DNA of 64,000 nucleotides from a virus: IMG/VR virus record IMGVR_UViG_3300047552_000910, positions 34,930-98,929 of that record; one strand, 5' to 3'. A program made the translations under genes and the position numbers. Below, piece by piece: positions 49,155 to 53,412 of the stretch. Position 1 is the first letter of the stretch; each line of letters starts with the position of its first letter. The notes beneath the pieces were generated by a model. That model saw only the letters and a list, made by a program, of their open reading frames with translations, did not search any database and was not told the DNA's origin.

Positions 49155-49358
49155 TTAGCTTATAGTAATCGGTTTAATTTCCATTGTTTCTGTGTCTACC
49201 TTAAATGCAACAAATATAGACGTTTGCCCTTCGTGCAGATGATCCAATTGATATTGTAGCCCGTCAACAGTAGAAAACTTGCCGCCAATATCCTGCGGAA
49301 AGTCTACACAATTCCCGCCCCATAATTCAGTTACTTTTTTAATTGTTTGATGCATCAA
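49155..49358 (-). CDS. Hypothetical protein
   Basis: 67-aa ORF, last in the Ro-like operon. Confidence 0.45.
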   Translation of the reverse strand: MMHQTIKKVTELWGGNCVDFPQDIGGKFSTVDGLQYQLDHLHEGQTSIFVAFKVDTETMEIKPITIS

Positions 49359-50250
49359 AAAACTCTCTAATATAATTCAATCTTTCTTGTTCTGAAAAAG
49401 TAGAAAACAACTCTATATCTTTTTGAACTTGGTCTACTAAAGGATAATACTCTTCGTCTAACTTAGACTTAATATTTAATTTTGAAAGTTTATCTGTACG
49501 AGTTCTTGCTAACAACTTTGAAACTAGGTAATACGGACTTTTTAGTTTAGCAGAAACCCTGTCGTTAGTGTAAAAGACATATCCTTCATGCTTAACAGTC
49601 TTAATAGACTTGATTAATTCGTCCAATGTAGTTTCAATTTTTTCTGGTACTTTACAATCAAATCCGTCTTTAGCAGATAAGTTTTCTAAATTTTCAGTTT
49701 CAATCGGCGAATTCCAATTATTAAATCGATATCCTAATAGGTACAGCCCTGCTTCTTCTGGAATAATATGCGGGTCGTCTGGATGCACGACTTCAAACAT
49801 AAACGTATACCAAGCATACAAGCTGCAAACTTCTTCAACTTTCTTTAAGTCCATTAGTTCCTTGGCCATATCTGCATATTTAGAATCTAACGACCCCGTA
49901 GTAGAAACTAATAAACTATCGTGCATCGAAGCTGCTGCCATAAATCCGTTTACTTTTCTAAAAGCAGTGACAGGAGTTTTAAGGGAAACACGCGGTGCAT
50001 TGTGTTCGATACCGTAATTAAAGATCTTAGTAAACGGATAAGAAACGATATTAAAATCTTTGTCTACTATAGTGCCTCGACAATTCTCCAACAAATTATT
50101 CCATCGACCTGTATAAAATACTTTTCTAGTATATTTTAAAACATACAAGCCGGGATAAGCAGGTGATTCTTTCATTGTCACCAACTTAGGATTATCTTCA
50201 ATAAACTTTTTAAGATTGTTAGTTAATTGCATTCCTGTTAATGGTTTCAT
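49339..50250 (-). CDS. RNA ligase (second Rnl1-like)
   Basis: LKY...VFY...W...L..CRG, YPFTKIFN, RKVNGF, STTGS, FEVVH..DPHI, HEGYV, KLKSPYY. Confidence 0.82.
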   Translation of the reverse strand: MKPLTGMQLTNNLKKFIEDNPKLVTMKESPAYPGLYVLKYTRKVFYTGRWNNLLENCRGTIVDKDFNIVSYPFTKIFNYGIEHNAPRVSLKTPVTAFRKVNGFMAAASMHDSLLVSTTGSLDSKYADMAKELMDLKKVEEVCSLYAWYTFMFEVVHPDDPHIIPEEAGLYLLGYRFNNWNSPIETENLENLSAKDGFDCKVPEKIETTLDELIKSIKTVKHEGYVFYTNDRVSAKLKSPYYLVSKLLARTRTDKLSKLNIKSKLDEEYYPLVDQVQKDIELFSTFSEQERLNYIREFFDASNN

Positions 50251-50259
50251 TTTTATGAC

Positions 50260-50709
50260 TCAGAGTAGAGGCAAATGCCTGGTTAGAGGATCTAATACTG
50301 TTGGATAATCTGGACCTATTGCTATCGCGGTGTATGTAGCAACACCATCGAATTCAGTTAACCCAGCATCTTTAATCAACGCAACATTAATTCCTTTTCC
50401 GACTGCGGCACTATATAAATCTAATAATTCTTTTTCAGAATTAACAGCAACACACACTTTAGTAAATTTACCATTAAGCCAATGACTTAGTGGCCATTTA
50501 GTTCCTGTTTCATCTGTCAACGGTATAACAATAGATTCTCGATTAGGTGAATGATCTGTTGCATTTTCCAACACCGCTGCCATTGCAGCGTGTGCTAATT
50601 GAGCTGCGACTTTGCCTGTACGAACTTTCTGTCCTTTTGAATTTCTTAAATCAGCCCGCCAAACTAAAATCATTTTTGGTTCTTGATTCATCTGCATGCC
50701 CTCAGACAT
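50260..50709 (-). CDS. pth2: Peptidyl-tRNA hydrolase, Pth2 family
   Basis: R.DL....GK.AAQLAHA, W....FTKVCV, I.DAGLTEF, T.IAIGP, LT.HLPLL. Confidence 0.9.
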   Translation of the reverse strand: MSEGMQMNQEPKMILVWRADLRNSKGQKVRTGKVAAQLAHAAMAAVLENATDHSPNRESIVIPLTDETGTKWPLSHWLNGKFTKVCVAVNSEKELLDLYSAAVGKGINVALIKDAGLTEFDGVATYTAIAIGPDYPTVLDPLTRHLPLL

Positions 50710-52129
50710 TATATCGGTCTATCATTACAGTCGACATCATAATACTCATCGGAGTAAACTGTTCCATGTCAGCAGACAAAATACCTTTTAGCAATGCAGG
50801 GCTGAAGCCCGACACTAGTGCTACTCCGCTCTTATCTGCCTTAACAGGAAAGTTGTCGTACCAATGAAGATTCCAAAAAACTACTAGCGGGCACTTGTAT
50901 CCTGCATCGTTGAACTTACGAGTAATCATCTCCATTCCTGTTTCGTCCACGGTAGGGCAACCTTGATCGAACTGCATATCAGAAAGTATCAACAGGATCT
51001 TAGGCATGTCTTCTTGAGAAACATTGCCTTCAATTGCAGTCTTTAGGATCTTATTCATTGCAGAATGCAGATTAGTAGACATGGACCACTTTGAGGTAGA
51101 CATTTGATTCATCTTTTCTACAATGTTACCTTTGAGGTGAAGCAATTGCGGTTCGGTTGAGAATGTAAGGAATGTATCCTTAAATACACCTTTATTCTTT
51201 TCTGCCACGTACAAACCGAGAGAAACAGCAACATCCATACAAGACAAGTTACGTTTGACAGAACCAGCCGGGCACATCATAGAACCTGATACGTCGACTA
51301 ACGGCAAAATCGACGCATCGCCAACGTAATCAGGAAGTGCATCCCATTGTGCAATGATATGATTTAGTTCAGTAAAATCATATGAGTATTTGTGCATTGG
51401 GAACGTTGAAATCATACCCTTCAATACATCATACGGATATACAGCATTGGCATTAACTTTAACAGAAGGATCTCCGTTAACAAGAGACAGCACATACTCC
51501 GCAAACTTTTCGGTATTCCTATTAAATGCCTTCTTGTAACGAGCAGCAGCAACCGACGGAACTTGGGAGAAATTGATATTATCCCAGTCCTTAGCACACA
51601 TCTGCGTCTCAACAACATGAGTGAGACCCACAATATACTTTCGATATTCGCGCGGAGTCATCTTCAAATAATTGCGCAGTTCGGCTGCAACTTTGCCAGT
51701 TCTCGGGCACCACTTCGCGGCTAGGCTATTGCCTGCTTCGAGATTTTTCTTGATGATAGAAAATGCAACATCTTTAAGCTTACGGGTTTGAACCGCAAAC
51801 AAATCATCAAACCTGCCGAGTTCAGGAATCTTGTACAGCAACTTTTCTGCTGAAGCAGGATCTACTGTTTCGAGATACTTAACGATATCCTTAAAAATTT
51901 GACGCTCTCCAGATCCGCCGCGGATATCACGACACCATTGAGCAATACGAAGAGCAAGCTCCTTATTCTCTACAAAAGCCGCAACAAACTTAGGAATAAT
52001 ATTTTGTCCGCGAGCAGCGCCAATTCCAAAGAAAAGGTCAACATTTGCATCAGTGGTGCTTTGGAGAGCTTTCATACCGTTCAAGGTACGAGCAGATTGA
52101 TTTTGCACGGCGTTAGTAAAGGTAGTCAT
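50702..52129 (-). CDS. Ro60/TROVE-like protein (DUF2828 + C-terminal vWA domain)
   Basis: RDIRGGSGER, G.FDDL, AAKWCPR, VVETQMC, I.FS.VPS.A, vWA MIDAS DVSGSM, SDMQFD, VFWNL, VSGFSP. Confidence 0.82.
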   Translation of the reverse strand: MTTFTNAVQNQSARTLNGMKALQSTTDANVDLFFGIGAARGQNIIPKFVAAFVENKELALRIAQWCRDIRGGSGERQIFKDIVKYLETVDPASAEKLLYKIPELGRFDDLFAVQTRKLKDVAFSIIKKNLEAGNSLAAKWCPRTGKVAAELRNYLKMTPREYRKYIVGLTHVVETQMCAKDWDNINFSQVPSVAAARYKKAFNRNTEKFAEYVLSLVNGDPSVKVNANAVYPYDVLKGMISTFPMHKYSYDFTELNHIIAQWDALPDYVGDASILPLVDVSGSMMCPAGSVKRNLSCMDVAVSLGLYVAEKNKGVFKDTFLTFSTEPQLLHLKGNIVEKMNQMSTSKWSMSTNLHSAMNKILKTAIEGNVSQEDMPKILLILSDMQFDQGCPTVDETGMEMITRKFNDAGYKCPLVVFWNLHWYDNFPVKADKSGVALVSGFSPALLKGILSADMEQFTPMSIMMSTVMIDRYNV

Positions 52130-52142
52130 TTTGATTGTCCTA

Positions 52143-52180
52143 TCGGGTTAGTGGTTTGATTGTTGCTGAATCTAATCCAA
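52143..52180 (-). promoter_or_regulatory. Short hairpin with UUCAGCAAC motif abutting the SD of the Ro-like gene
   Basis: UUGGAUUAG / CUAACCCGA stem with one mismatch; loop AUUCAGCAACAAUCAAACCA. Confidence 0.55.
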
Positions 52181-52192
52181 GAAATTAAAAAC

Positions 52193-52399
52193 GGGATGGT
52201 TGGCTTGAGTGTTTAATTTAATTAGCAGACTCGATACAAGCCAACTGCATTTGTTACCTTTGATTTAGCTGTAACCGCATAGTAGTCTTTCCTACGTCAC
52301 CTATTCCATAAGCGTCTACTCTGGGAAGTAGATAAAGGCATCCGACCCACCGTCTATAGTTGTTGTTGGATAAGCTATTTAAGTTGCTGAACCCATCCC
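52193..52399 (-). ncRNA. Candidate ~207-nt structured ncRNA (Y-RNA-like context)
   Basis: No ORF; 5' GGGAUG pairs with 3' CAUCCC; internal stems GUUGGCUU/AAGCCAAC, GAGU/ACUC, UCUACU/AGUAGA, GUAG/CUAC, GUUAC/GUAAC; followed by a U-run; promoter immediately upstream. Confidence 0.6.
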
Positions 52400-52414
52400 T
52401 AACTTTAAGTTTAT

Positions 52415-52443
52415 ATTATACTAGCTCTGTATAACTAAGTCAA
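52415..52443 (-). promoter_or_regulatory. sigma70-type promoter TTGACT-17-TATAAT driving the ncRNA/Ro-like operon
   Basis: Direct motif match; predicted start about 9 nt before GGGAUG. Confidence 0.8.
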
Positions 52444-52486
52444 CTATTTAGTCTTACTAGGATAAATATTTAAAACCGGAAGTAAT

Positions 52487-53011
52487 ATGAAGATTTTAGA
52501 AATCATTATAGAAAATCACGAAGAGCACGGAAGAGCATTACAAGACACTGGCTTCTGGGGTCGAGCAGGTGCAGGTTGTCTTTTCCTTTCTTTAAAAACC
52601 GGTAGAATTTGTATAGCGCATCGTTCAGATGATGTACAAGAACCGCATACATGGGGAACTTGGGGCGGAGCAATCGATTCGAATGAAAGTCCACAAGCTG
52701 CTGCGCAAAGAGAAGTTCAAGAAGAAGCTGGTTATTTTGGACCATTAAAGATTGTTCCATTATTTATTTTCTCACATCCGTCCGGTTTTAAATATTATAA
52801 TTTCTTAGCAATAGTAAAAGACGAGTTCTCTCCGGAACTTGACTGGGAAACACAAGGTTTCACTTGGGTCGAGTTTGGTAAATGGCCTCGTCCGTTACAT
52901 CCGGGATTAGCATCGTTATTATCTGATTCGGCTTCCGTTAATACTATCAGAACTTATGTAGAAGTAGCTAAAAAATTAATACAGCAAAGAAACATGAAAT
53001 CTGCTTATTGA
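52487..53011 (+). CDS. Nudix hydrolase with capsid-targeting-like N-terminus
   Basis: Nudix box GGAIDSNESPQAAAQREVQEEAG; MKILEIIIE start; TAAATA at 52463. Confidence 0.85.
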   Translation: MKILEIIIENHEEHGRALQDTGFWGRAGAGCLFLSLKTGRICIAHRSDDVQEPHTWGTWGGAIDSNESPQAAAQREVQEEAGYFGPLKIVPLFIFSHPSGFKYYNFLAIVKDEFSPELDWETQGFTWVEFGKWPRPLHPGLASLLSDSASVNTIRTYVEVAKKLIQQRNMKSAY

Positions 53012-53037
53012 TTATGGGGGCTTGCGCCCCCATAATC
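53010..53037. terminator. 12-bp hairpin between convergent genes
   Basis: gattatgggggc-ttgc-gcccccataatc. Confidence 0.75.
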
Positions 53038-53040
53038 TAA

Positions 53041-53412
53041 TTAGCCCAAATCCTCCAATTCCTTAATAAGTTCGTCTCGAGTCTTAGCACGAAGACTTTC
53101 TGATTCCTTTTCGTGCAGGATCGAAATCAGTTCCGCACGGCGTGCTTGCTTTGCTGCGCGATCCTTAGCAAGCTTTGCTTCTGCTAGCTTAGATGAAATG
53201 ATATGTTTAACGATATCAAAGCTCAACGAAAGTGTCTTATTACCGGAAGACCGTTCTTCGATAAAACTTTCTTCAGTATCTTTAAGTTGCTTATTAAGGT
53301 TCTTAGCAACAGTATCTAGAGAAGTTAATGACAGATCCCAAAGATCTTCGGTAGACAACACCCCGCGAGGGGTAACAAAACGCAACTTATTTTTTGAAGC
53401 AGCTTCAAACAT
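53041..53412 (-). CDS. Hypothetical phage protein
   Basis: FE.A...KLRF...RG.LS.EDLWDL; adjacent to the 661-aa gene. Confidence 0.65.
   Translation of the reverse strand: MFEAASKNKLRFVTPRGVLSTEDLWDLSLTSLDTVAKNLNKQLKDTEESFIEERSSGNKTLSLSFDIVKHIISSKLAEAKLAKDRAAKQARRAELISILHEKESESLRAKTRDELIKELEDLG

What the first reader, a model, noticed from the sequence alone, without database searches (positions are those of the whole stretch)
52143..52399. Repeated GGAU..G(A)UUCAGCAAC stem motif: one copy opens the ncRNA, the other sits on the Ro-like gene's ribosome-binding site
Seen: GGAUGGGUUCAGCAAC (52383-52398) and GGAUUAGAUUCAGCAAC (52162-52178) each form the 5' strand of a stem followed by an identical unpaired UUCAGCAAC. 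The stems differ in sequence but both pair. The second, 38-nt copy ends 1 nt before the AGGA SD. Inference: this is the protein's recognition element, and the mini-copy is an autoregulatory operator that balances protein against RNA, or a second minimal Y-like RNA.
Basis: partly seen in the sequence, partly recalled or inferred. Interest (0 to 1): 0.8.

Follow-up and report, generated by a model that had tools for sequence, protein, structure and literature searches.

The report
Shared handle of phage Ro-partner RNAs
The repeated "stem plus CAGCAA" motif is real: it is the conserved handle of a widespread, uncatalogued family of small phage RNAs that travel with a Ro60-shaped RNA-binding protein, and here a stripped-down copy sits next to that protein gene's ribosome-binding site, where it could let the protein limit its own synthesis.

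Summary
Observation confirmed. Both copies (52383-52398 and 52162-52178, minus strand) are there. Each is the 5' strand of a terminal stem followed by unpaired UUCAGCAAC.

The motif is a family feature, not a local repeat. In 67 related phage loci, AGR-N6-9-CAGCAA is about 10 times denser upstream of the homologous gene than downstream. 119 of 146 sites have a perfect 7-nt partner strand, against 3-9 in controls, with 38 different stems. A covariance model built without the window ranks the window's mini copy first in the whole 99-kb record.

The same handle lies beside DUF2828 genes in Vibrio, Cronobacter, Synechococcus, Listeria, Campylobacter and Mycobacterium phages, often inside tRNA arrays. 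T4 has neither the gene nor the RNAs. The protein model matches Ro60/TROVE structures.

Some relatives' units carry a YrlA-like tRNA mimic. The small units resemble Dictyostelium Class I RNAs. No Rfam family reaches its gathering score.

The window's long RNA belongs to a conserved ~210-260-nt family. A copy next to the ribosome-binding site recurs in 39 of 59 related loci, which fits an autoregulatory operator but does not show one.

This scan has found the system before on other DNA (at least 32 genomes). I found no paper defining the RNA family.

The parts
52415..52443 (-). sigma-70-type promoter (TTGACT, 17 nt, TATAAT) driving the long RNA, the mini unit and the operon
   Evidence: 11 of 12 matches, the best site in 50500-53200. 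No other promoter-like site lies between it and the gene.
52192..52400 (-). long handle-bearing ncRNA (~209 nt). Closing stem 52399-52393 with 52199-52193. Member of a conserved ~210-260-nt RNA family.
   Evidence: nhmmer finds relatives in at least 14 other phage contigs. Alignment A6 shares GGGAUG..CAGCAW...CAUCCCGUUUA. 13 of 28 RNAalifold pairs keep pairing through changes on both sides.
52383..52391 (-). UUCAGCAAC box of the long RNA, 1 nt after the 5' strand of the closing stem
   Evidence: CAGCA is invariant in alignment A6.
52187..52191 (-). U5 run after the closing stem. Counterpart of the GUU(G)UUUU tail of related units; possible partial terminator or processing site.
   Evidence: In relatives the tail GUU follows 98 of 119 closing stems. 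Function not tested.
52143..52180 (-). cargo-less 38-nt mini unit: stem 52180-52172 with 52151-52143, 20-nt loop starting AUUCAGCAAC
   Evidence: Best hit of model R1 (built without the window) in the window and the whole record, 19.6 bits. The closest relatives L005 and L008 have 34-nt units at the same place.
52162..52170 (-). UUCAGCAAC box of the mini unit
52138..52141 (-). Shine-Dalgarno AGGA of the DUF2828 gene, 1 nt after the mini unit and 8 nt before the ATG
   Evidence: Relatives read ...AACCUGAAAGGA....
50702..52129 (-). Ro60-like protein gene (DUF2828 + DUF7788/vWA, 475 aa)
   Evidence: Pfam PF11443 and PF25043. PHROG 850, 'RNA-binding protein'. AlphaFold model with pLDDT 78.7. The 12 best Foldseek PDB matches listed are all Ro60/TROVE, E 2e-7 to 6e-5, TM 0.36-0.58. 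The MIDAS-type D-x-S-G-S motif is invariant.
50260..50709 (-). peptidyl-tRNA hydrolase PTH2, overlapping the end of the Ro-like gene
   Evidence: PF01981, 2.4e-25
49339..50250 (-). T4 Rnl1-type RNA ligase
   Evidence: PF09511; phrog_562

Best explanation
The motif is the conserved 'handle' of a family of Y-RNA-like small RNAs that accompany Ro60-shaped DUF2828 proteins in phages.

A handle has three parts. First, a roughly 7-bp helix formed by the two ends of the RNA; its sequence varies but it always pairs. Second, an unpaired CAGCAA box 2-3 nt after the 5' strand. Third, a 3' ...C(U/C)G tail. Between the strands sits interchangeable cargo: nothing, an anticodon-arm-like hairpin, a permuted tRNA mimic of the YrlA type, or, as in this window, a conserved ~200-nt domain.

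Most likely the Ro-like protein binds the handle, as Ro60 binds the stem and CGAA-type motif of Y RNAs. The cargo then brings in RNAs or enzymes for tRNA care. In this window the operon continues with a peptidyl-tRNA hydrolase and an Rnl1-type RNA ligase.

One promoter here transcribes the long RNA, then a cargo-less handle, then the protein gene. The second handle ends 1 nt before the Shine-Dalgarno sequence, so bound protein would block the ribosome. That would be feedback matching protein to RNA.

Shown: the sequences, the covarying stems, the family-wide link to the gene, the Ro60 fold, and the recurrent SD-adjacent position. Inferred: the binding itself, the repression, and the function in tRNA care.
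For: Enrichment: the motif is 0.95 per kb upstream of the gene on the coding strand. It is 0.09 per kb in the gene and downstream, and 0.04 per kb on the other strand.

Structure: 119 of 146 sites have a perfect 7-nt partner, against 2.6 with permuted and 9.4 with swapped strands. There are 38 distinct stems, and 98 of 119 are followed by GUU, which was not imposed. On alignment A2, 90.7% of cells are paired against 72.6% in shuffles, and 55 cells changed on both sides against 15. RNAalifold predicts the same 7-bp helix.

Window membership: model R1's top hit is the window's mini copy.

From the motif side: 42 of 83 motif sites in IMG/VR have a DUF2828 gene within 3 kb downstream. The rest lie in tRNA arrays. 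All three complete genomes among those encode DUF2828 elsewhere.

Distant lineages: handles lie beside or near DUF2828 genes in KVP40, Cronobacter S13, Synechococcus BUCT-ZZ01, Listeria List-36, Mycobacterium LeBron, Campylobacter CP8, a Felixounavirus and Serratia BF. T4 has neither the gene nor the RNAs.

Protein: Ro60/TROVE fold.

Cargo: YrlA-like tRNA mimic at 38-40 bits in L018, L032 and LeBron.

Precedent: Thermus phage Ro60 binds two upstream Y-like RNAs through a CGAA motif beside the terminal stem (PMC12135203).

Operator idea: in 39 of 59 loci the nearest unit ends within 40 nt of the ATG. 61 of 70 SD-adjacent units precede DUF2828 genes. 51 of 70 SD-adjacent units are 70 nt or shorter, against 124 of 346 elsewhere.
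Against: There are no binding, expression or processing data for any member.

The window's two handles depart from the consensus. They end CCG rather than CUG, the mini stem has an A/C mismatch, and R1 scores them only 19.6 and 13.2 bits.

Handles also sit many kilobases from the gene inside tRNA arrays. Part of the linkage could therefore reflect shared residence in tRNA clusters.

In Listeria, Mycobacterium, Felix O1-like and KVP40 phages no unit abuts the start codon, so autoregulation is at best clade-specific.

The loci used for the SD-adjacency count were partly chosen through the gene, which inflates the 61 of 70.

Bas63 gp130 works against the Ppl defence when moved alone into T7 (PMC11482910), so the protein can act without its own RNAs.
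Confidence: 0.6

Rival explanations
1. The SD-proximal copy is simply the last, minimal member of the RNA array: a small decoy or spare Y-like RNA cut from the same transcript. It has no effect on translation, and its position next to the SD is a by-product of tight packing.
For: Units are packed 4-12 nt apart and next to tRNAs throughout. Cargo-less and small units also occur away from any start codon (124 units of 70 nt or less are not SD-adjacent). Distant lineages lack an SD-adjacent unit.
Against: The nearest unit ends 12-36 nt from the ATG in 39 of 59 loci across several sub-clades and in Campylobacter CP8. SD-adjacent units are enriched for short ones. When a unit abuts a start codon, the gene is DUF2828 in 61 of 70 cases.
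Confidence: 0.25
2. The handle is a processing or stability signal for tRNA-cluster transcripts. It would be a substrate or guide for an RNase, or a protective terminal helix, and the Ro-like protein does not read it. Its linkage to DUF2828 arises only because both live in tRNA regions.
For: Many units are flanked directly by tRNAs. The tail GUU(G)U-run is conserved. A terminal helix at the 5' end of the mRNA could protect it.
Against: In this window there are no tRNAs at all, yet two handles precede the gene. In Mycobacterium phage LeBron no tRNA gene is annotated or detected in the 4.4-kb stretch examined, and the three units abut the gene. T4 has a tRNA cluster but no handles and no DUF2828. 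An invariant single-stranded hexamer beside a stem of free sequence is typical of a protein site.
Confidence: 0.1
3. The two copies are a chance or recent local duplication without function.
For: 13 of 100 shuffles of the window contain at least 2 copies of the 9-mer somewhere. The whole region does not fold better than shuffles.
Against: Both copies lie in one 260-nt intergenic stretch on one strand, each beside a pairing stem. The same grammar recurs in hundreds of loci with different stems.
Confidence: 0.01

Closest known systems
Ro60/Rsr with Y RNAs, especially bacterial and phage YrlA/YrlB (Chen et al. 2014, PMC4201824; Rfam RF02553) and Thermus phage phiLo Ro60 with Yrl1/Yrl2 (PMC12135203)
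   Same: The small RNAs are encoded on the same strand next to a gene for a ring-plus-vWA protein. Their two ends form a stem, with a short conserved single-stranded motif beside the 5' strand. There are several tandem copies. Some relatives carry a permuted tRNA-like domain (T arm, closed acceptor stem, D arm). The neighbourhood holds RNA-repair genes.
   Different: The protein is DUF2828/DUF7788, not Pfam TROVE, and is recognisable as Ro60-like only by fold. The box is CAGCAA, not GNCGAAN0-1G or CGAA. No unit reaches YrlA's gathering score (best 39.8 against 69). The window's own RNAs have no tRNA-like domain. Many units are embedded in tRNA arrays. A cargo-less copy abuts the SD.
Class I RNAs of dictyostelid social amoebae (Rfam RF01414; Kjellin et al. 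2021, PMC7919456)
   Same: The RNA grammar is nearly the same. Length is about 55-60 nt, with a 6-7-bp stem joining the ends. A conserved box follows the 5' strand and contains ..U..CAGCAA. The 5' end is (A/U)AG and the 3' end CUGU. The rest is variable. The Dictyostelium model picks the phage units as its best hits (up to 33.8 bits, E about 1e-5 per genome).
   Different: All scores are below the gathering score of 41.5, and the window's own copies are not hit. Class I RNAs are eukaryotic genes, each with its own promoter element. Their reported direct partner is the RRM protein Rnp1A. I could not show a DUF2828 protein in any dictyostelid.
Translational operators that mimic a protein's main RNA ligand (ribosomal-protein operons, MS2 coat protein hairpin, T4 gp32/RegA; from general knowledge)
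   Same: A copy of the presumed binding element lies in the 5' leader of the protein's own mRNA, right at the ribosome-binding site.
   Different: Neither binding nor repression has been shown, and no Ro-type protein is known to autoregulate in this way.
Bas63 gp130, a Ro60-like counter of the Ppl defence (PhageMaP preprint, PMC11482910)
   Same: It is a Ro60-shaped phage protein encoded at the head of a tRNA array. The authors guessed that some annotated 'tRNAs' are Y RNAs.
   Different: That work defines no RNA family or motif. gp130 acted alone when moved into T7. I did not align gp130 to the window protein; only Felixounavirus homologs at about 37% identity were seen.
T4 stable RNAs rnaC and rnaD in the tRNA cluster
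   Same: They are small stable RNAs of unknown function co-located with phage tRNA genes.
   Different: They have no stem-plus-CAGCAA handle and no R1 hit, and T4 has no DUF2828 gene.

Membership tests
   Long copy: 7 Watson-Crick pairs. Mini copy: 8 of 9 positions paired. In the family, 119 of 146 sites have a partner strand and there are 38 different stems.
   Both copies read UUCAGCAAC. CAGCAA is invariant in alignment A2.
   The window has CCC-G-U5 (long) and CCC-G-A (mini). So G is kept while U becomes C. The long-RNA family A6 also reads CAUCCCG.
   The mini copy scores 19.6 bits, E 0.024, and ranks first of 64 kb. The long copy matches only in its 5' half, 13.2 bits, E about 1.
   The gene starts 14 nt after the mini unit.
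Y RNA / YrlA (RF02553) | Encoded near a Ro60-family gene on the same strand | tested here: met
   Adjacent to a protein with the Ro60 fold.
Y RNA / YrlA (RF02553) | GNCGAAN0-1G (CGAA) motif near the 5' end | tested here: not met
   The box is CAGCAA. The motif definition is from PMC4201824.
Y RNA / YrlA (RF02553) | tRNA-like domain (T arm, closed acceptor stem, D arm) | tested here: not met
   There is no YrlA or tRNA match in window 51900-52600 even at E 10. The domain is present in relatives' units at 38-40 bits.
Y RNA / YrlA (RF02553) | Rfam gathering score (69 bits) | tested here: not met
Y RNA / YrlA (RF02553) | Bound by the Ro protein | not testable with these tools
   Needs EMSA or co-purification.
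Dictyostelid Class I RNA (RF01414) | 42-65 nt, a short stem joining the ends, and an 11-nt box after the 5' strand with U3, C6, C9, A10, A11 | tested here: inconclusive
   The grammar is met by relatives' small units. The window's mini copy has the box and stem but is only 38 nt. The feature list is from PMC7919456.
Dictyostelid Class I RNA (RF01414) | Rfam gathering score (41.5 bits) | tested here: not met
   The best phage unit scores 33.8 bits. The window is not hit.
Dictyostelid Class I RNA (RF01414) | Dictyostelid gene context (upstream DUSE element) and the Rnp1A partner | not testable with these tools
   No eukaryotic genomes are at hand, and the phage context clearly differs.
Ro60/TROVE proteins | HEAT-repeat ring plus vWA domain | tested here: met
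   The 12 best Foldseek PDB matches listed are all Ro60/TROVE, over the full length.
Ro60/TROVE proteins | Pfam TROVE sequence signature | tested here: not met
   Only DUF2828 and DUF7788 are found. A phmmer search of PDB sequences finds nothing.
Ro60/TROVE proteins | MIDAS-type metal site (D-x-S-x-S) in the vWA domain | tested here: met
   D279, S281, G282 and S283 are invariant in 29 homologs.
Autoregulatory translational operator | A copy of the ligand motif at the ribosome-binding site of the protein's own mRNA | tested here: met
   The unit ends 1 nt before the SD. The arrangement recurs in 39 of 59 loci.
Autoregulatory translational operator | The protein represses translation through the site | not testable with these tools
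   Needs a reporter assay.

The most novel reading that the evidence does not exclude
The stem-plus-CAGCAA handle may be an ancient, portable tag read by DUF2828 Ro-like proteins, and the Class I RNAs of social amoebae may be members or close analogues of the same RNA class. Those RNAs are so far described as unique to Dictyostelia and have no known mechanism. If so, Class I RNAs would work as Y-RNA-like partners of a Ro-type particle. In phages like this one, a cargo-less tag has additionally been placed on the protein's own ribosome-binding site as a feedback operator.
Probability: 0.2. Interest if true: 0.85.

Novelty: new variant of a known kind. Interest (0 to 1): 0.7.

Why it matters
Ro60 and Y RNAs form a conserved but poorly understood RNA-surveillance particle. 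DUF2828 proteins are a large sister group, found in hundreds of phages and in plants, fungi, protists and giant viruses. No RNA partner has been defined for them.

A sequence-defined handle would make the partner RNAs findable in any genome. It would explain unannotated gaps in phage tRNA arrays, including in the well-studied phage KVP40. It would also give a direct test: bind, mutate CAGCAA, and measure.

A near-relative protein already counters a bacterial defence (Ppl). The RNAs may therefore matter for phage-host conflict and for tRNA repair.

The SD-adjacent cargo-less copy would be the first proposed case of a Ro-type protein regulating its own translation. The likeness to Dictyostelium Class I RNAs offers a testable lead on a long-standing unknown.

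Tried and rejected
1. Rfam 15 at gathering score on the window and on 20 related loci returned only tRNAs for these elements. Scans at an E-value cut-off gave sub-threshold YrlA and Class I matches in relatives and nothing meaningful in the window.

2. A pseudoknot between the loop's CAAC and the 3' tail GUUG was considered. I dropped it because SD-proximal and window units lack the GUUG tail yet keep the box.

3. T4 rnaC and rnaD as homologs: no handle is present.

4. My first stem finder picked G-U-rich or distant false partners. I replaced it with strict 7-mer matching plus controls.

5. I tried to show a DUF2828 protein in Dictyostelium. This used three protein searches, one profile search of 1.84 billion representatives, a composition screen and one cluster look-up. 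They found plants, Naegleria, Willaertia, Chromera, zoopagomycete and ascomycete fungi and Pacmanvirus, but no dictyostelid. This is not evidence of absence.

6. DDB_G0281243, an unnamed protein pulled down with a Class I RNA, could not be identified from the papers or supplements held. Avesson et al. 2011 is not in the library.

7. Sequence search of the protein against PDB found nothing. Only the fold search worked.

8. megablast of the region against known phages found no match.

Full report
**What is in the window**

On the minus strand a near-consensus sigma-70 promoter (52443-52415) is followed by about 280 nt without an ORF. Then comes a tightly packed operon. It encodes a 475-aa DUF2828/DUF7788 protein (52129-50702), a PTH2 peptidyl-tRNA hydrolase and a T4 Rnl1-type RNA ligase. 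The window is part of a 98.9-kb IMG/VR phage contig estimated to be 28% complete. It contains no tRNA genes.

UUCAGCAAC occurs only twice in 64 kb, both times here.

In the long copy, GGGAUGG (52399-52393) pairs with CCAUCCC (52199-52193). G and U5 follow. In the mini copy, UUGGAUUAG (52180-52172) pairs with CUAACCCGA (52151-52143) with one A/C mismatch. It ends 1 nt before the Shine-Dalgarno (SD) sequence AGGA.

Folding energy alone is unremarkable (z -0.26). The case therefore rests on comparison with relatives.

**The motif is a family feature**

The search for related loci returned 80 phage loci whose homologs are 50-64% identical in protein. In nearly all of them the region upstream of the gene holds one to five copies of the same grammar:

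(U)AGGAUnn - n(UU) - CAGCAA(c) - variable interior - nnAUCCU - GUU(G).

The 5' motif is about ten times denser upstream of the gene on the coding strand (0.95 per kb) than in the gene and downstream (0.09 per kb). On the other strand it is 0.04 per kb.

Of 146 motifs within 900 nt upstream, 119 have a perfect Watson-Crick 7-mer partner within 460 nt. Controls gave 2.6 when the five inner letters were permuted and 9.4 when strands were swapped between sites. Thirty-eight different 7-mers are used. In 98 of 119 cases the partner is followed by GUU, which the search did not require.

An alignment of 29 small units (A2) gives an invariant CAGCAA and a 7-bp helix. Four of its positions change on both sides while keeping the pair. 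No shuffle of 500 reached the observed pairing or covariation score.

**The window's copies are members**

Covariance model R1 was built from those 29 units, with the window left out. Its best hit in the window and in the whole 98.9-kb record is 52137-52184, at 19.6 bits and E 0.02-0.04. The 5' half of the long copy ranks fourth in the window.

Both window handles are slightly off consensus. They end CCG instead of CUG, and the mini stem has one mismatch.

The two closest relatives, L005 and L008, have 34-nt cargo-less units in the same position, ending ...CCUGAAAGGA. L005 also has the same order as the window: promoter, long unit, mini unit, gene.

**The long RNA**

nhmmer with the window's long RNA finds relatives in many loci. 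Fourteen aligned sequences (A6) share several blocks:
- GGGAUG..CAGCAW at the 5' end
- internal blocks such as GGAAAGAC and CAGACACAA
- CAUCCCGUUUA at the 3' end

RNAalifold predicts 28 pairs. Thirteen of them keep pairing through changes on both sides. The 'ncRNA' is therefore a conserved structured RNA of about 210-260 nt. It is one cargo type carried on the common handle.

**Other cargo types**

Many 50-65-nt units enclose a hairpin with a 7-nt CU-NNN-AA loop, like an anticodon arm.

Units of about 115 nt carry a T arm, a closed acceptor-like stem and a D arm. This is the permuted tRNA mimic described for YrlA by Chen et al. 2014 (PMC4201824). They match Rfam YrlA at 38-40 bits, below the gathering score of 69.

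**Link to the protein, tested from the RNA side**

The exact pattern TTAGGATNNNTTCAGCAAC occurs in at least 120 stretches of IMG/VR. Of the 83 sites examined, 42 have a DUF2828 homolog starting within 3 kb downstream on the same strand. Most of those lie 77-87 nt away.

Most of the other sites are genuine units inside phage tRNA arrays, often 4-10 nt from a tRNA. Among their contigs, all three complete genomes encode DUF2828 elsewhere, as do 8 of 14 contigs overall. The rest are fragments or stemless chance matches.

**Range across phages**

R1 or direct reading finds handles in the following phages.
- **Vibrio phage KVP40:** two unannotated gaps in its tRNA cluster.
- **Cronobacter phage S13**.
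- **Synechococcus phage BUCT-ZZ01:** three units upstream of the gene.
- **Listeria phage List-36:** three tandem units upstream.
- **Mycobacterium phage LeBron:** three units just downstream of gp53, the middle one with a YrlA-like domain.
- **Campylobacter phage CP8:** two units upstream, the second ending about 12 nt before the SD.
- **A Felixounavirus and Serratia phage BF:** units in tRNA arrays (for the last five entries).

The proteins in these phages are only 31-46% identical to the window's, yet CAGCAA is unchanged. T4 has a tRNA cluster but no DUF2828 gene and no handle.

**The protein**

Sequence search against PDB finds nothing. An AlphaFold model built on 29 homologs has pLDDT 78.7 and pTM 0.80. 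Its 12 best PDB matches listed are all Ro60/TROVE proteins: Xenopus and human Ro60, Deinococcus Rsr and Thermus phage phiLo Ro60. They score E 2e-7 to 6e-5 with TM 0.36-0.58 over the full length. The MIDAS-type D-x-S-G-S motif is invariant.

**What the literature holds**

Canonical Ro60 partners carry GNCGAAN0-1G (PMC4201824). Thermus phage phiLo Ro60 binds two upstream Y-like RNAs through a CGAA motif beside the terminal stem, and point mutations there weaken binding 3-4-fold (PMC12135203).

The PhageMaP preprint shows that Ro60-like gp130 of the Felix O1-type phage Bas63 counters the Ppl defence. Its authors guess that some neighbouring 'tRNAs' are Y RNAs (PMC11482910). That lead came from earlier notes of this scan.

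Searching 'DUF2828' in the library gave only unrelated papers. I found no description of the CAGCAA handle. Rfam 15 has no family that reaches its gathering score on these units.

**Resemblance to Class I RNAs**

The Rfam model of Dictyostelium Class I RNAs (RF01414) picks phage small units as its best hits:
- 33.8 bits for L005:4534-4587, a unit between two tRNAs of a complete 355-kb phage
- 28.5 bits in L047
- 27.4 bits in KVP40
- 23.1 bits in Listeria List-36

The gathering score is 41.5.

Kjellin et al. 2021 (PMC7919456) list the conserved features of Class I RNAs:
- a length of 42-65 nt
- a 6-bp stem joining the ends
- an 11-nt box next to the 5' strand, with U3, C6, C9, A10 and A11 near-universal
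- a start of AAG and an end of CUGU
- an otherwise variable sequence

Each of these has a counterpart in the phage units. The authors report the class as unique to Dictyostelia.

I could not show a dictyostelid DUF2828 protein. I also could not identify DDB_G0281243, an uncharacterised protein pulled down with a Class I RNA. The likeness is therefore a lead, not a finding. The window's own copies are not hit by RF01414.

**The SD-adjacent copy**

In 39 of 59 related loci with enough upstream sequence, the nearest unit ends 12-36 nt before the ATG. A typical reading is ...AACCUGAAAGGA.

Across all loci fetched, 416 distinct strict units were found. Seventy of them lie 5-45 nt before an SD and an ORF of at least 80 aa. 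Sixty-one of those ORFs are DUF2828. One of the others is a phosphoesterase.

SD-adjacent units are mostly short: 51 of 70 are 70 nt or less, against 124 of 346 elsewhere.

This fits a handle-only copy used as an operator. A protein bound to a helix ending 1-4 nt from the SD would hinder 30S binding. Three caveats apply. Part of the locus set was chosen through the gene. Related loci are not independent. Several distant lineages have no SD-adjacent unit. I put autoregulation at about one in three.

**Verdict**

The element is best described as the handle of a new, widespread variant of the Ro/Y-RNA theme. It is not a member of YrlA or of the Class I RNAs as Rfam defines them. Binding, processing and regulation all remain inferred.

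The same system has been noted by this scan in at least 32 other genomes. I reached the points above independently before reading those notes, except for the PhageMaP reference.

Noticed in passing
L213:84-520 (Listeria phage List-36, NC_024364.1 about 102420-102856): A ROOL RNA (RF03087) match at 84.2 bits, E 6e-16, below the gathering score of 99.1. It lies just upstream of a tRNA-Met, the three handle units and the DUF2828 gene.
   Followed up: no
L211:1157-1229 and 1838-1939 (Vibrio phage KVP40, NC_005083.2 176657-176728 and 177338-177438, minus strand): Two handle units (AGCAAUC..CAGCAA..GAUUGCUGUUU and AGCUUGC..CUGCAA..GCAAGCUGUUG) sit in unannotated gaps of the KVP40 tRNA cluster, next to annotated pseudo-tRNAs.
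   Followed up: partly
L214:2950-3230 (Mycobacterium phage LeBron, gap between gp53 and gp54): Three handle units lie in a GC-rich actinophage, directly downstream of the DUF2828 gene. The middle one carries a YrlA-like tRNA mimic (39.8 bits).
   Followed up: partly
small units in L008, L012, L013, L017, L023, L046, L058 and others (listed): The interiors of many 50-65-nt units form a 4-5-bp hairpin with a 7-nt CU-NNN-AA loop. It resembles an anticodon arm, with triplets UGU, UCU, CAU, GUU, UUU and GUA. They could be decoys or baits for anticodon nucleases, but this is untested.
   Followed up: no
L032:3695-3766, L046:843-917 and 1898-1969: ARAGORN calls tRNAs with anticodons CUA and UCA (reported as Pyl and SeC) in these phage tRNA arrays. 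They may be suppressor tRNAs.
   Followed up: no
L058:5587-5693 (minus strand): A match above the gathering score to the Rhizobiales sRNA Atu_At1 (70.8 bits against 60), beside a tRNA-Ser in a phage tRNA array. It is probably a tRNA-related false positive.
   Followed up: no
window 52487-53011 (+): A NUDIX hydrolase gene is transcribed divergently from the Ro-operon promoter region.
   Followed up: no
L103:6025-6579: One of the few non-DUF2828 genes with a handle unit just before its ribosome-binding site is a phosphoesterase (phrog_547). This may hint at a small regulon.
   Followed up: partly
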